Assembly: GCA_963806535.1 (NCBI GenBank)
Contig: CAWDYC010000003.1
Location: 160,001-224,000, forward strand
Direction: 5' to 3'
DNA from: Candidatus Bathyarchaeota archaeon
GTDB taxonomy: Archaea; Thermoproteota; Bathyarchaeia; Bathyarchaeales; Bathycorpusculaceae
Length of the DNA stretch: 64,000 nt
Shown: piece by piece, positions 24,736-56,672 of the stretch
How positions within the stretch are numbered: position 1 is the first letter of the stretch
How the letters are laid out: the number at the start of each line of letters is the position of its first letter
Made by a program: the position numbers and the translations under genes
The notes under the pieces: model-generated
Databases searched by the model: none
Told to the model about the DNA's origin: nothing
The model's input: only the letters and a program-made list of their open reading frames with translations

Positions 24736-24810
24736 GGGCCAATCGTCTAGCCTGGTTAGGACGTTGGCTTTACACGCCAAAGGTCGCCGGTTCAACTCCG
24801 GCTCGGCCCA
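24736..24810 (+). tRNA. tRNA-Val (anticodon TAC)
   Basis: GGGCCAA..TCGGCCCA acceptor stem (one A-C mismatch), D-arm, anticodon arm TTGGC-TTTACAC-GCCAA, T-arm GCCGG-TTCAACT-CCGGC. Confidence 0.95.
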
Positions 24811-53600: not shown

Positions 53601-54102
53601 AGCCGCCTCCTCGCCTTTATCAATTTGAATGACATCTCCCAAAGTTAATTCTTGACTAGCAGAACGAGGAAGAGGAGTGCCCTTTTCTTCAGAAATCGGA
53701 ACAAGCAACTTGATTTTTAACATATGCTCAAGCTTTGAGGCAAGCTGATTGTTAGGCGCCATCTTGCCAACTTCAAGATTTCTCAAAACTGAAGCTTTCT
53801 CATTTATTCTTTTACCTAATTCTTCGTGGGTGAGACACTAGTTTTTCCCGTGCTGCTCGTATGGTATTTGCGTAGTCTTCCGTGACTTCTTGAGTTAATT
53901 GCACATTAGCGACCATTGGTTTTCTTGAAACCATGCTAATTGGTGCCTGCGGTTTTTTGATAGCTTGTCTGGGAGCAGCTGGTTCTGCATAAACTATTTT
54001 TCCATGTTTTGAGCATTCAACGCAAACAGTTAGTCTTGCTCCTTCAATTACTGCTGTGATTGGTTCATCGTGAATTTTGTGTCCGCAGACTTCGCATCTC
54101 AA
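53580..54102 (-). CDS. archaeal multiprotein bridging factor 1 (frameshift near 53835)
   Basis: CEVCG..VC..C Zn ribbon, IRAARE HTH, KLE..L.I.L, LTLGD. Confidence 0.88.
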
Positions 54103-54187
54103 TGTAGGCTTTCACCTTTTAACTGTCTTTATTATATTGTTATGTTTATACTTGTCGAAACAACAAAAAAGTAATGATGGTGAAAAT

Positions 54188-54649
54188 ATGGATAACACGC
54201 TTGGCAAATTGAGGGCTATTGCTGATTACCAGTTTGGGAAAGGGGTAGGCGCAAAGTTGTTTTCCGAAGATATCCAGGTTCAATATTCTCCAAGAACTGG
54301 TAGAATACGTTTTATCAACTTAAACGGTGAAAGATTAGCTACTCTACGTCCAACTGACGGCTTGCTTTCTTTAAGCATTAAAGCAGCCAAGTTGATGTCG
54401 GAAAATACTTCTTTTGCAAAGTGTTTTGTAACGATACAAAATGAGGTTTCAAAGTTTATTGCTAAGGGAGGAGACGTTTTTGCCGTTCACGTTGTTAAAG
54501 TTGATCCCGACATACGCGCTAAAGACGAAGTCATTGTGAAAGATGAGTCGGGAAATGTTTTGGCGGTTGGTCGAACGCAGCTTTCAAGCGCTGAGATCGT
54601 TGCTTTTAAAACCGGCGTAGCTGTTAAAGTCAGACACGGAATAAAATAA
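54188..54649 (+). CDS. PUA-domain RNA-binding protein
   Basis: IADYQFG, ATLR..DG, G.DVFA.HV, DEV......LAVG, GVAVKVR. Confidence 0.85.
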   Translation: MDNTLGKLRAIADYQFGKGVGAKLFSEDIQVQYSPRTGRIRFINLNGERLATLRPTDGLLSLSIKAAKLMSENTSFAKCFVTIQNEVSKFIAKGGDVFAVHVVKVDPDIRAKDEVIVKDESGNVLAVGRTQLSSAEIVAFKTGVAVKVRHGIK

Positions 54650-55590: not shown

Positions 55591-55911
55591 TATCTTACAA
55601 TAATTTTCATGGCAACGATGAAGGTTAAGTTTACTCAAGGTATTCGTTGCTTTTTTGTTAAAATATTATAGGCATTACGCTCCTTACCAAACATGACATC
55701 CTGGCGTGGATTTCTCGAAAAAACACGTCATCCATGCCAAATTGACAAGTCTATGTTAAGAATTAGCTCCAAGACAAAAGTCGTTCCAGCCAAGTTTACC
55801 GAGTGTAATCACAATAGACTGCAAAGATGATCTTTACAAGACATTAGTTGAGGTTAATTGCAAAATTTTTGTTCAAAATTTGTTATATTTCACCTAACAC
55901 TATTACGGTGT

Positions 55912-56141
55912 TGCAGGTCGGGGAGCACGCTTTAATCGTGATGCATTGAGGCAATGAGTGTGTCAATTAAAACAGCGAAAAATTGATGCGCGACAAAAAC
56001 ATTGCTTTGATGGGCTGGGCATTACAATGTTGCAGTGAGGTTATGAGCAGCGTGGTCAAAACGGTGAAAGACCATGTTGCGACTAAGACATAGCCTCAAT
56101 GGACCGCGAACATAAAAGTTAAGGCTCAGACCCAACCTGTA
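55912..56141 (+). ncRNA. putative structured non-coding RNA with two tandem pseudoknotted domains (family unrecognised)
   Basis: 5'/3' closing helix; two units offset by 89 nt with identical element lengths and compensatory changes; TATA-like box at 55883, pyrimidine tract at the 3' end. Confidence 0.7.
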
Positions 56142-56306
56142 CTTTCTTCTCAAAAGAAATATCATGTTCGCTTTTTGGTTTGAAAATATGGAATGATGAA
56201 GAAAAGTCCATTAAACTGTTGAGAACAAAATTCAAACGAATAGCTTAGAAAAAAGTTAAGTTTATATCAATTACTACAGCAGAATAGTTCTTGGAAGTTA
56301 GACTAT

Positions 56307-56672
56307 ATGCATAAGCGCATGAATCCTCGAGAGCAAAAACGTATGATGCAACGTATGGGCATGAACATGGACACGGTGCCCGACGTTCAACAAGTAATTA
56401 TCAGGACAAATAACAAAGACATAGTAATTGATGAGCCAGAAGTCGCAATTTTAGAAGTTCAGGGGCAAAAAATGTACCAAATCATCGGTGGGCAAGTTTC
56501 AGAGCAAGCGCCATCAAAACGTCAATCTGCAGCCGCTGCTCAGCCAACCTTTTCTGAGGAAGATGTAAGGTTGGTGGCAGATCAAACTGGCAAAAGCTTG
56601 GAAAAAGCAAAAGAAGCACTTGAGGAGTGCCAAGGAGATTTAGCAAAAGCAATCCTGCTACTTCAATCTTAA
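56307..56672 (+). CDS. nac: nascent polypeptide-associated complex protein
   Basis: MNPR...MM.RMG, NAC domain, C-terminal EEDV.LVA.QTG..GDLA.AI. Confidence 0.93.
   Translation: MHKRMNPREQKRMMQRMGMNMDTVPDVQQVIIRTNNKDIVIDEPEVAILEVQGQKMYQIIGGQVSEQAPSKRQSAAAAQPTFSEEDVRLVADQTGKSLEKAKEALEECQGDLAKAILLLQS

What the first reader, a model, noticed from the sequence alone, without database searches (positions are those of the whole stretch)
55912..56141. Unrecognised ~230-nt RNA with two tandem, covarying pseudoknot domains
Seen: two units offset by 89 nt share an identical layout. P1 is TGAGGCAATG/CATTGCTTTG vs TGAGGTTATG/CATAGCCTCA, followed by a single A. The 11-bp P2 has very different sequence but retains pairing (GTGTGTCAATT/AATTGATGCGC vs GCAGCGTGGTC/GACCATGTTGC). 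The loops are AAAA-CAGC-GAAA vs AAAA-CGGT-GAAA, and the bulge is GACWAARA. After P1 comes ATGG then GCTG vs ACCG, each complementary to its own loop tetramer: a compensatory pseudoknot. The ends pair (TGCAGGTCGGG/CCCAACCTGTA), G-U pairs favour the + strand, and a TATA-like box and pyrimidine tail flank it. It lacks the SRP, RNase P, tRNA and common riboswitch signatures I know. Inference: a new archaeal ncRNA class, tandem aptamer or ribozyme.
Basis: partly seen in the sequence, partly recalled or inferred. Interest (0 to 1): 0.85.

Follow-up and report, generated by a model that had tools for sequence, protein, structure and literature searches.

The report
Circular pseudoknot RNA of Bathyarchaeia
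A gene of an uncultured soil archaeon makes a small, tightly folded RNA that appears to be cut out and sealed into a ring by the cell's tRNA-splicing enzymes; it belongs to a widespread RNA family that we could not find described anywhere, and its job is unknown.

Summary
Window 55912-56141 (+) encodes a conserved structured RNA with two tandem units, each P1-P2 plus a 4-bp pseudoknot from the loop to the 3' tail. On 97 non-redundant homologues, 90.4% of pair cells are paired against 30-40% with slid partners, and all 4 pairs of pseudoknot 2 covary. Rfam has no match, even at E<=10.

The "pairing ends" are the outer helix of a canonical archaeal bulge-helix-bulge motif. Contigs from four environmental RNA libraries join 56129 back to 55929, exactly inside the two 3-nt bulges, and one 231-nt contig wraps a 201-nt circle. 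The mature RNA is therefore most likely a circle made by the splicing endonuclease and RtcB, both of which the genome encodes.

The family occurs across the class Bathyarchaeia with one, two or three units. It has its own TATA promoter and no conserved neighbouring gene. It is not a riboswitch for nac, and nothing shows it is a ribozyme. Its function is unknown. My best guess is a stable, modular scaffold that binds a protein or a ligand. No description was found in print.

The parts
55883..55888 (+). TATA box (TTATAT), 24-29 nt before the first base of the outer helix, preceded by an A-rich BRE-like stretch
   Evidence: sequence; in 97 of 97 homologous loci, positions -28, -27 and -26 before the helix are 100%, 100% and 99% A/T, and -34/-33 are 74-78% A.
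55912..56141 (+).
55912..55922 (+). 5' strand of the outer (exon-side) helix h of the BHB motif. It pairs with 56131-56141 and is not part of the mature RNA.
   Evidence: helix 1: 11 pairs, 9 with changes on both sides, 91.8% paired. In one search no laid piece listed in table 8 reaches left of 55929.
55923..55926 (+). 5' strand (GAGC) of the 4-bp central helix of the BHB. It pairs with GCTC at 56124-56127.
   Evidence: 97 of 97 sequences have GAGC (89), GAGT (7) or AAGC (1) opposite GCTC (64) or GCTT (33). helix 2: 100% paired in 26 one-unit relatives.
55927..55929 (+). 5' three-nucleotide bulge (ACG). Inferred cut between 55928 and 55929.
   Evidence: always 3 nt (AAG 50, ACG 42, ATG 4, AGG 1 of 97). 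table 5: the joints land on 55929.
55929..56129 (+). Mature RNA, 201 nt, joined 56129 to 55929 (circle)
   Evidence: The joint 56129->55929 ('goes back 201', both = 0) is in all 4 RNA runs: X4 has 1 contig, X5 2, X12 2, X13 2. X5 record 24 (231 nt) runs 56036-56129 then 55929-56065, so it has a 30-nt terminal overlap around a 201-nt circle.
55929..55935 (+). 5' strand of the junction stem Pc (GCTTTAA). It pairs with TTAAGGC at 56119-56125 once the ends are joined. The TCAG loop 56126-56129 holds the ligation site.
   Evidence: the circular MFE forms this stem. helix 3: in one-unit relatives the stem extends to 11 tested pairs, 9 of them with changes on both sides.
55944..56017 (+). Unit 1. P1a: 55944-55956 with 56000-56012. 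Single A at 55957. P2a: 55958-55968 with 55981-55991. 12-nt loop: 55969-55980. 8-nt A-rich bulge: 55992-55999. PK1: 55973-55976 with 56014-56017.
   Evidence: helices 3-6. P1a: 8 of 12 pairs change on both sides. P2a: 10 of 11. PK1 is invariant here but covaries, helix 6.
56018..56031 (+). Linker with a short hairpin (P3) between the units
   Evidence: helix 7: 4 pairs, variation on one side only, 87.3% paired. Weak support.
56033..56106 (+). Unit 2. P1b: 56033-56045 with 56089-56101. Single A at 56046. P2b: 56047-56057 with 56070-56080. Loop: 56058-56069. Bulge: 56081-56088. PK2: 56062-56065 with 56103-56106.
   Evidence: helices 8-11. P1b: 11 of 12 pairs change on both sides. P2b: 10 of 11. 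PK2: 4 of 4 (98.4% paired).
56128..56130 (+). 3' three-nucleotide bulge (AGA). Inferred cut between 56129 and 56130.
   Evidence: AGA 91, AGG 5, TGA 1 of 97. table 5: the joints leave from 56129.
56131..56141 (+). 3' strand of the outer helix h
   Evidence: helix 1.
56142..56151 (+). Pyrimidine-rich tract after the helix, a possible terminator
   Evidence: Downstream positions 1-9 are 68-89% A/T and G-poor. Only some of the listed loci show C/T runs. Weak.

Best explanation
Window 55912-56141 (+) is a free-standing gene whose only product is the 'intron'.

Shown or well supported:
- It has its own BRE/TATA promoter.
- The precursor folds so that its two ends form a canonical archaeal bulge-helix-bulge motif: an outer 11-bp helix, a 3-nt bulge, a 4-bp helix GAGC/GCUC, a 3-nt bulge, and an inner helix.
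- RNA contigs carry 56129 joined directly to 55929, the second/third position of both bulges. This gives a 201-nt circle.
- The circle holds two tandem modules. In each, a 12-13-bp P1 and an 11-bp P2 meet at a 1 x 8-nt A-rich internal loop. Four bases of the 12-nt P2 loop pair with the four bases that follow P1.

Inferred:
- The splicing endonuclease (two EndA paralogues in this genome) makes the cuts and RtcB seals them.
- After sealing, the halves of the motif re-pair as a GCUUUAA/UUAAGGC stem capped by the junction.
- P2 must fold back alongside P1 to reach its partner, which gives a compact two-helix module.

Guess at function (about 0.35). The ring is a long-lived, exonuclease-proof scaffold or decoy that acts in trans. 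Each module offers one binding site for a protein, or less likely a small ligand. The number of modules (1, 2 or 3) sets the valency.
For: Structure: (97 sequences; 90.4% paired against 30-40% slid; 52 of 71 pairs covary; PK2 4 of 4). (26 one-unit relatives; 89.5% against 28-42%; 43 of 55 pairs covary; PK 2 of 4; junction stem 9 of 11).

Local rather than swapped P1 pairing. The swapped version is 69.0% paired, and 463 of 500 shuffles do as well.

BHB motif. Both bulges are exactly 3 nt in 97 of 97 sequences, and the central 4 bp always pair.

Circle. The joint 56129->55929 is in 4 of 4 RNA runs from 4 studies. Relatives show the same junction in tables 5c and 7. X5 record 24 wraps 201 nt.

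The junction word is absent from this genome's DNA: G000 0 forward and 0 reverse.

Enzymes: two tRNA_int_endo genes, 96.1 and 71.7 bits; RtcB, 476.9 bits.

BHB definition, the broad-specificity alpha/beta enzyme in TACK archaea, and circularisation of excised pieces: passages of PMC7714728.

Own promoter. No conserved neighbour: (best cluster in 16 of 155 loci).

Module number varies. In one search, 54 matches are 210-239 nt long, 42 are 138-168 nt and 1 is partial, of 97. One search shows a three-unit form.

No Rfam family matches.
Against: - The RNA evidence is assembled contigs from environmental libraries, laid at >=80% likeness. Most come from relatives: only 5 of 67, 16 of 92, 0 of 11 and 2 of 127 laid contigs are >=99% alike.
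- Contigs cannot give strand, true ends, or the ratio of circular to linear forms. They also cannot exclude re-linearisation after circle formation.
- A head-to-tail joint could in principle arise from template switching or an assembly artefact. Against that, it falls on the predicted cut sites in four studies.
- No enzyme assay was possible.
- The exact cut position within a BHB bulge (after its second base) is recalled from the canonical tRNA 37/38 intron geometry, not taken from a call.
- PK1 and the inner BHB helix do not vary in the two-unit set, so they rest on analogy and on the one-unit relatives.
- The functional guess has no direct support. No partner protein, ligand or target was found.
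Confidence: 0.78

Rival explanations
1. A linear, roughly 230-nt ncRNA closed by the end helix, with a kink-turn (an L7Ae site) next to it.
For: The end helix covaries (helix 1). The conserved GGAGCA and GGCUCAGAC strings beside a 3-nt bulge look like tandem G.A pairs.
Against: The RNA contigs join 56129 to 55929. That cut falls between the supposed G and A of the kink-turn, and the contigs carry junction letters, not the end helix, before 55929 (tables 5, 5c, 7). The four bases next to the bulge always form standard pairs, including an A-U where G is replaced. A BHB needs this pairing; a kink-turn does not.
Confidence: 0.04
2. A cis-acting tandem riboswitch or leader that controls the downstream nac gene.
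For: It lies 165 nt upstream of nac on the same strand. Tandem aptamers are a known riboswitch layout (recalled).
Against: nac is not a conserved neighbour. The commonest neighbour cluster is in 16 of 155 loci, on the opposite strand, and is a DNA ligase. The second copy in this genome lies between an Hsp20 gene and a membrane-protein gene. The element has its own promoter, and the RNA is excised at both ends.
Confidence: 0.02
3. A self-cleaving ribozyme or a viroid-like / retrozyme-like circular replicon.
For: It is circular, highly structured and pseudoknotted, and its contigs occur in metatranscriptomes.
Against: It is encoded in chromosomal DNA of many genomes at 1-4 copies. Its ends sit in a protein-enzyme motif (the BHB), so no ribozyme is needed. 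No known ribozyme family matches at E<=10. None was found in 2.9 million viral contigs, with a pattern that finds 78 of 218 held loci. A new catalytic activity cannot be excluded by computation.
Confidence: 0.05
4. A selfish or relic BHB intron that became free-standing. It would be stable because it is circular, but would have no cellular function.
For: Distribution is patchy at CM sensitivity, for example family f1 14 of 35 and f6 2 of 25. Copy number and unit number vary. Neighbours vary.
Against: About 25-30 unpaired bases per alignment are invariant across orders of a class, while helices covary freely. That pattern indicates selection on a precise fold. The promoter is conserved. Some 'negative' genomes hold divergent copies (2 of 5), so patchiness is partly a detection limit.
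Confidence: 0.08
5. A circularly permuted gene of a known RNA (RNase P specificity domain, SRP, 5S, tRNA) that linear covariance models cannot see.
For: Permuted, BHB-processed genes of known RNAs exist in archaea: permuted tRNAs (PMC3978253, listing) and the Thermoproteus SRP RNA (recalled). This genome's RNase P match is weak, at 22 bits.
Against: SRP RNA (145.3 bits) and 5S rRNA (69.8 bits) are elsewhere in the genome. In one search, 110 of 151 genomes of the order scored over the RNase P cut-off. These include carriers of this RNA (G013, G017, G052, G054) and genomes where one search found none (G061, G037). ARAGORN calls nothing here. The tandem units present every permutation of a unit to Rfam, and nothing matched at E<=10.
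Confidence: 0.03

Closest known systems
BHB-excised circular RNAs of archaea: tRNA introns such as tRNA-Trp, circular pre-16S/23S rRNA, and the HVO_1309 5'-UTR intron of Haloferax (PMC7714728, passages read; PMC3326292, passages)
   Same: The same processing signal: a 4-bp helix between two 3-nt bulges, with cuts inside the bulges. The same predicted enzymes (EndA, then a ligase) and a circular product.
   Different: Those circles are by-products or intermediates of a host RNA whose exons matter. Here the 'exons' are only the two strands of the outer helix, the excised piece is the conserved part, and it carries a fold of its own with pseudoknot modules.
Circularly permuted, BHB-processed genes: permuted tRNAs (PMC3978253, search listing only) and the Thermoproteus SRP RNA (recalled, not seen in any call)
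   Same: A free-standing gene that depends on BHB cutting and ligation to give the functional RNA topology.
   Different: Those restore a known RNA. This one matches no known family, and SRP and 5S are encoded elsewhere in the genome.
Metazoan tRNA intronic circular RNAs, tricRNAs (PMC4536317, abstract start seen)
   Same: Stable circular non-coding RNA made by the tRNA splicing machinery.
   Different: tricRNAs come from tRNA genes of animals. This RNA has no tRNA host and has a conserved tertiary fold.
Tandem-aptamer riboswitches such as glycine, and repeated pseudoknot RNAs such as the ToxI type III antitoxin or tandem flaviviral xrRNAs (all recalled)
   Same: Repeated, independently folding structured or pseudoknotted modules in one RNA, with a variable number of modules.
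   Different: There is no expression platform and no regulated gene, no adjacent toxin gene, and no virus. No sequence or Rfam similarity. The topology is circular.
Circular isoforms of IS200/IS605 omega RNAs in archaea (PMC12558985, title and abstract start seen)
   Same: Structured archaeal non-coding RNAs, with pseudoknots, that are found as circles.
   Different: Those lie beside TnpB transposon genes. No transposase or TnpB was seen among the ten commonest neighbour clusters.

Membership tests
Archaeal BHB (hBHBh') splicing-endonuclease substrate with circular product | Central helix of 4 base pairs | tested here: met
   97 of 97 sequences have GAGC, GAGT or AAGC opposite GCTC or GCTT., helix 2: 100% of cells paired in 26 one-unit relatives. 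Window: 55923-55926 with 56124-56127.
Archaeal BHB (hBHBh') splicing-endonuclease substrate with circular product | Two 3-nt bulges on opposite strands flanking that helix | tested here: met
   the 5' bulge is 3 nt in 97 of 97 sequences and the 3' bulge is 3 nt in 97 of 97. Window: 55927-55929 and 56128-56130.
Archaeal BHB (hBHBh') splicing-endonuclease substrate with circular product | Outer helices h and h' with at least two Watson-Crick pairs each (definition from PMC7714728) | tested here: met
   h is 11 bp, with 9 of 11 pairs covarying. In the window h' is C-G, U-A, U-A (55930-55932 with 56121-56123). h' is invariant in the two-unit set, so it rests on sequence only. In family f21 it is interrupted by an internal loop.
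Archaeal BHB (hBHBh') splicing-endonuclease substrate with circular product | Product ends lie inside the bulges and are ligated to each other | tested here: met
   joint 56129->55929 in 4 of 4 RNA runs, and the wrapped 231-nt contig in X5. That the canonical cut follows the second bulge base is recalled.
Archaeal BHB (hBHBh') splicing-endonuclease substrate with circular product | Splicing endonuclease and RtcB ligase encoded by the organism | tested here: met
   two EndA-family genes. RtcB, though read in two adjoining frames.
Archaeal BHB (hBHBh') splicing-endonuclease substrate with circular product | Cleavage by the enzyme demonstrated | not testable with these tools
   Needs recombinant EndA and a precursor transcript.
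Any Rfam 15 family | Covariance-model match | tested here: not met
   at gathering thresholds the window gives only a tRNA at 24736-24810; 0 matches at E<=10 on 55700-56350.
Riboswitch (cis-regulatory aptamer) | Sits in the leader of a gene or gene class that is conserved downstream | tested here: not met
   no conserved neighbour in 155 loci; own promoter; excised at both ends.
Riboswitch (cis-regulatory aptamer) | Binds a small ligand | not testable with these tools
   Needs in-line probing or ITC.
Self-cleaving ribozyme / viroid-like replicon | Known ribozyme core, or RNA without a DNA template | tested here: not met
   no ribozyme family. DNA copies in many genomes; none on viral contigs.
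Self-cleaving ribozyme / viroid-like replicon | Self-cleavage in vitro | not testable with these tools
   Needs a transcription and cleavage assay.
Kink-turn (L7Ae-binding) RNA | 3-nt bulge followed by tandem sheared G.A pairs that stay intact in the RNA | tested here: not met
   The junction separates the supposed G (56129) from the A (56130). The neighbouring four bases behave as Watson-Crick/GU pairs.
tRNA / tmRNA | Cloverleaf or tRNA-like domain | tested here: not met
   ARAGORN finds no gene in L001 or L002. Only 7 of 60 loci hold any tRNA.
RNase P RNA (including a detached specificity domain) | Match to RF00373, or presence only where RNase P is reduced | tested here: not met
   no match; 110 of 151 genomes of the order scored over the cut-off, including carriers of this RNA and genomes where one search found none.

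The most novel reading that the evidence does not exclude
This is the first 'intron-only' gene family: a promoter-driven gene kept solely to feed a structured RNA into the tRNA-splicing pathway. It yields a class-wide circular RNA of Bathyarchaeia whose fold-back pseudoknot module is a new functional RNA fold. The module could be a ligand sensor, the core of a new ribonucleoprotein, or a new catalyst, and it is used in one, two or three copies per ring.
Probability: 0.5. Interest if true: 0.9.

Novelty: new variant of a known kind. Interest (0 to 1): 0.8.

Why it matters
Bathyarchaeia are among the most widespread uncultured archaea of soils, peat and sediments, and almost nothing is known of their RNA biology.

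In archaea, the circles that BHB cutting and ligation are known to yield come from a host RNA: excised tRNA, rRNA and mRNA-leader introns and rRNA processing intermediates. Permuted tRNA or SRP genes use the same pathway to restore a known RNA. Here a dedicated gene appears to exist only to make a folded ring. That would make the splicing endonuclease and RtcB pathway a biogenesis route for a stand-alone RNA class.

The module is sharply defined: two covarying helices of about 11-13 bp, roughly 25 invariant unpaired bases, and a covarying 4-bp pseudoknot. It is therefore a ready target for structure determination, ligand or protein fishing, and possibly for use as a natural, self-folding circular RNA scaffold.

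The finding also turns a sequence-only hunch into testable predictions: two exact cut sites and one junction.

Tried and rejected
1. Kink-turn reading of the conserved GGAGCA / GGCUCAGAC strings. This was my own first idea. I dropped it when one search put the RNA junction between the supposed G and A, and searches showed the adjoining four bases always pair.

2. The MFE structure pairs the 5' strand of P1a with the 3' strand of P1b. Tested on 97 sequences, this gives 69.0% paired, and 463 of 500 shuffles do as well. Rejected in favour of local P1a and P1b.

3. Plain mutual information with APC over all column pairs. It was dominated by the split of the family into two clades, so many non-pairs scored high. 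I did not use it beyond listing Watson-Crick-consistent pairs.

4. nac synteny and any conserved neighbour. None was found. The top clusters are DNA ligase, CBS protein, MFS transporter, ELP3-like radical SAM, SET-domain proteins and unknowns.

5. Link to tRNA genes. 7 of 60 loci hold a tRNA, and only one (L038) is within about 150 nt.

6. Link to a reduced RNase P. G000 has only a 22-bit, 189-nt match that lacks the specificity domain. But, 110 of 151 genomes of the order scored over the cut-off, carriers and non-carriers alike. G000's case is therefore probably an assembly gap or a chance match.

7. 5S and SRP identity. Both are encoded elsewhere.

8. Viral carriage. 0 of the viral contigs match a pattern that finds 78 of 218 held loci.

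9. Junction word in DNA.
- The 14-letter word occurs at 56 places in 49 of 401 genomes of the order, against 12 for the reversed control.
- All 5 places I fetched lie inside open frames of 195-517 codons. One is a GLGF protease motif.
- Where RNA loci were known (G074, G116, G162, G025, G163, G019, G022, G008), the word lies on other contigs.
- G000 has none.
- So the word is too short to be specific, and I saw no DNA copy of the joined form. The other 51 places were not read.

10. Parts without cover. Bins 55700-55915 and 56132-56251 had depth 0 in all four runs, and nac (56252-56395) had depths of 16 or less. Summed word depths over the RNA reached 4677 (X4), 4260 (X5), 515 (X12) and 354,926 (X13). 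The tool warns that contig depth cannot rank genes and that holes prove nothing. I therefore claim neither abundance nor absence of the flanks from these figures. They are only a hint that the RNA accumulates.

12. Literature. Seven full-text searches and passages of five papers gave no description of this RNA.

14. I did not scan metagenome contigs, did not search other archaeal phyla, and made no phylogenetic-profile search for a partner protein.
Full report
WHAT IS THERE

It has two units 89 nt apart. Each unit has a 12-13-bp P1, a single A, an 11-bp P2, and a 12-nt loop (AAAA-CAGC-GAAA in unit 1, AAAA-CGGU-GAAA in unit 2). Each also has an 8-nt A-rich bulge on the 3' side. After P1 comes AUGG and then four bases complementary to the middle of that unit's own loop.

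The + strand folds much better than shuffles (-81.3 kcal/mol, z -5.2). The - strand does less well (-63.1, z -3.0). Rfam 15 gives nothing: only a tRNA elsewhere in the window at gathering thresholds, and no match at all at E<=10 on 55700-56350.

IS THE STRUCTURE REAL?

The genome holds a second copy, 78% identical, 110 kb away and outside the window. A blastn of 61 related genomes found matches in 30, including 27 of 36 in the same genus.

A motif scan of one genome per prokaryotic species gave 105 stretches. Of the 80 listed, nearly all come from records titled Candidatus Bathyarchaeia or Bathyarchaeota. One exception, an Alcaligenaceae contig (L057), had no nhmmer hit and is a chance match. 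Two contigs titled Limnocylindrales and Methanocella carry full copies and are probably mis-binned.

From 124 full-length hits I kept 101 distinct sequences, and from these 97 that are under 96% identical. I aligned them.

On that alignment, the structure I wrote down from the window sequence has 90.4% of 6827 cells paired. With partners slid by 1-3 columns the figure is 30.0-40.0%. 52 of 71 pairs change on both sides, and none of 500 shuffles reaches any of the five measures.

Per helix:
- End helix: 9 of 11 pairs covary.
- P1a: 8 of 12.
- P2a: 10 of 11.
- P1b: 11 of 12.
- P2b: 10 of 11.
- PK2: 4 of 4 (CGGU/ACCG, CGGC/GCCG, CAGC/GCUG, CGAC/GUCG and wobble variants).
- PK1 (CAGC/GCUG): invariant here, which says nothing either way.

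The MFE alternative pairs P1a's 5' strand with P1b's 3' strand. It is no better than shuffles (69.0% paired; 463 of 500 shuffles as good).

THE FAMILY

I built a covariance model from the 97 sequences. It found the RNA in 76 of 151 genomes sampled from the same order. That includes 33 of 34 genomes in family f11 and 19 of 19 in genus g16. It found the RNA in 25 of 151 genomes sampled from the class, including families of other orders: f21 4 of 5, f23 3 of 3, f25 2 of 5.

The 97 matches fall into two sizes: 54 of 210-239 nt and 42 of 138-168 nt, plus one fragment. The short ones span the whole model with one unit deleted. Some genomes hold both sizes; G052 has one long and three short. G013 and four other loci have three units.

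The one-unit form is the only form matched in the other orders sampled. On 26 one-unit sequences, 89.5% of cells are paired, against 28-42% when slid. 43 of 55 pairs covary, and the pseudoknot now varies: CAGC/GCUG, CGGC/GCCG, CAAC/GUUG, with 2 of 4 pairs changing on both sides.

A one-unit model found nothing in 131 genomes of other classes of the phylum (strict filters). Two of five same-genus genomes that had looked negative hold divergent copies. Absences are therefore partly a detection limit.

THE TURNING POINT: THE ENDS

I first read the conserved strings beside the end helix as a kink-turn. The RNA data say otherwise. I laid the contigs of four metatranscriptome runs on 55700-56400. 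The runs come from four studies and are labelled wetland, sediment, wetland and peat.

In all four runs, contigs join 56129 directly back to 55929 ('goes back 201', no ambiguous letters; 1, 2, 2 and 2 contigs). Contigs of relatives show the same junction with their own letters (tables 5c and 7). What precedes 55929 is the 3' end of the RNA, not the end helix. One X5 contig of 231 nt runs 56036-56129 and then 55929-56065. It carries the same 30 letters at both ends, which is what an assembler with 31-letter words gives for a 201-nt circle. Many other contigs are 225-232 nt long. A joint of the three-unit form is also seen, in X13.

The two junction points explain the conserved strings. In order, the elements are:
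- 55912-55922 pairs with 56131-56141: the outer helix.
- 56128-56130 (AGA) is a 3-nt bulge.
- 55923-55926 (GAGC) pairs with 56124-56127 (GCUC): a 4-bp helix.
- 55927-55929 (ACG) is a 3-nt bulge on the other strand.
- 55930-55932 pairs with 56121-56123: the inner helix.

[quoted passage not shown] Both junction points lie after the second base of their bulge. That is the symmetric position I recall from the canonical tRNA 37/38 intron; it is recalled, not from a call.

Both bulges are exactly 3 nt in 97 of 97 sequences, and the central four pairs are always standard pairs (100% in the one-unit set).

The genome encodes two EndA-family proteins. Two paralogues are what the alpha/beta type of enzyme needs, the type that the same paper says is found mainly in TACK archaea and accepts a broad range of substrates. 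The genome also encodes RtcB.

The junction word does not occur in this genome's DNA. Elsewhere it is a short word that I found only inside protein-coding frames (5 of 5 places read).

THE MATURE RNA

Once joined, GCUUUAA (55929-55935) and UUAAGGC (56119-56125) can pair around a UCAG loop that holds the ligation site. The circular MFE forms this stem. In one-unit relatives the stem continues for 11 tested pairs, 9 of which covary. So the invariant strings serve twice: first in the processing motif, then in the junction stem.

In one-unit rings, P1 follows directly on this stem. The 3' strand between them is a 7-nt bulge, and four of its bases pair with the P2 loop. P2 (11 bp) must therefore fold back along P1 (13 bp) at the 1 x 8 internal loop. 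This fold-back is inference from the pairing geometry. In the window's two-unit ring, the junction stem, P1a, a short linker hairpin and P1b meet at a four-way junction.

WHAT IT IS NOT

- Not a leader of nac. Across 155 distinct loci, the commonest neighbour cluster occurs 16 times, on the opposite strand, and is a DNA ligase. The rest are unrelated.
- It has its own promoter. Positions -28 to -26 before the outer helix are 99-100% A/T in 97 loci, with an A-rich stretch just upstream.
- Not 5S or SRP RNA; both are elsewhere in the genome.
- Not RNase P RNA. One search gives no match, and this genome's only RNase P candidate, a 22-bit match, lies on contig C9. In one search, 110 of 151 genomes of the order scored over the cut-off, both with and without this RNA.
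- Not a tRNA or tmRNA.
- Not on viral contigs.

No paper in the searchable library describes it. The recent work on circular rRNA in uncultured archaea, including Bathyarchaeia, deals with rRNA only, in the passages I read.

HOW IT MOST LIKELY WORKS

The proposed steps, each with its basis:
1. Transcription from its own promoter. The promoter signal is shown; the start site is not mapped.
2. The precursor folds into the BHB. Supported by conservation and covariation.
3. EndA cuts at 55928|55929 and 56129|56130, and RtcB ligates. Inferred from the motif, the genes and the junction.
4. The ends refold into the junction stem, and the two pseudoknot modules fold. Supported by covariation.
5. The ring acts in trans. 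Inferred from the lack of any conserved neighbour.

For the function I can only rank guesses:
- A stable multivalent scaffold or decoy for a protein: about 0.35.
- A binder of a small ligand or ion: about 0.2.
- A new catalyst: under 0.1.
- No function, a selfish relic: about 0.1.
- Something else: the rest.

The variable number of near-identical modules, and the different pseudoknot letters in units 1 and 2 (which would keep the modules from mispairing), fit independent binding modules. Neither is proof.

LIMITS

- The RNA evidence is assembled contigs, mostly from relatives. It gives no strand, no true ends and no proportions.
- Contig depths cannot rank genes, so I make no claim of abundance.
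- No enzyme or probing experiment was possible.
- The search of earlier findings and the supplements were closed.

Noticed in passing
G000 contig C3:49296-49524 (locus L002 about 1496-1724), outside the window: Second two-unit copy of the RNA in the same genome, 78% identical. It lies between an Hsp20 gene and a small membrane-protein gene, with a histidine-kinase fragment upstream and an AsnC-type regulator downstream.
   Followed up: partly
L010 1499-1817 (-), also L135, L104, L102, L035: Three-unit versions. Unit 1 is duplicated, with the same CAGC/GCUG pseudoknot letters in both copies, followed by unit 2. A matching joint was seen in RNA contigs of run X13.
   Followed up: partly
Window 55842-55882 and the same stretch in homologous loci: Upstream of the TATA box there are further conserved blocks: T-rich at -55 to -52, and TTGT...ACAA-like inverted repeats around -45 to -31. 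They could be a regulator's binding site.
   Followed up: no
G000 C3:346685-347996 (-) (L209/L210): The RtcB gene matches in two adjoining frames (profile 1-335 in a 404-codon frame, 335-426 in a 93-codon frame). This could be a frameshift, an assembly error or a split gene.
   Followed up: no
G000 C9:153724-153912 (L032 1501-1689): The only RNase P-like match in this genome scores 22 bits and lacks the whole specificity domain. Relatives have full-length RNase P RNAs of about 300 nt scoring 180-243 bits. The real gene is therefore probably in an assembly gap (the genome is 91.75% complete).
   Followed up: partly
L045 (titled Limnocylindrales bacterium) and L107 (titled Methanocella sp.): Contigs binned to a bacterium and to a methanogen carry full-length copies of this Bathyarchaeia RNA. 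They are likely mis-binned contigs.
   Followed up: no
Window 54077-54649 (+): A 190-aa ORF made only of the C2 and PUA domains of archaeosine tRNA-guanine transglycosylase. It is a stand-alone C-terminal piece.
   Followed up: no
Window 24736-24810 (+): A tRNA gene, the only Rfam match in the window at gathering thresholds (60 bits).
   Followed up: no
L218 about 1501-1514 and four other loci: The 14-letter RNA junction word recurs in protein-coding genes of the order. One case encodes a GLGF motif of a trypsin-like protease. It occurs at 56 places against 12 for the reversed control, and this is unrelated to the RNA.
   Followed up: partly
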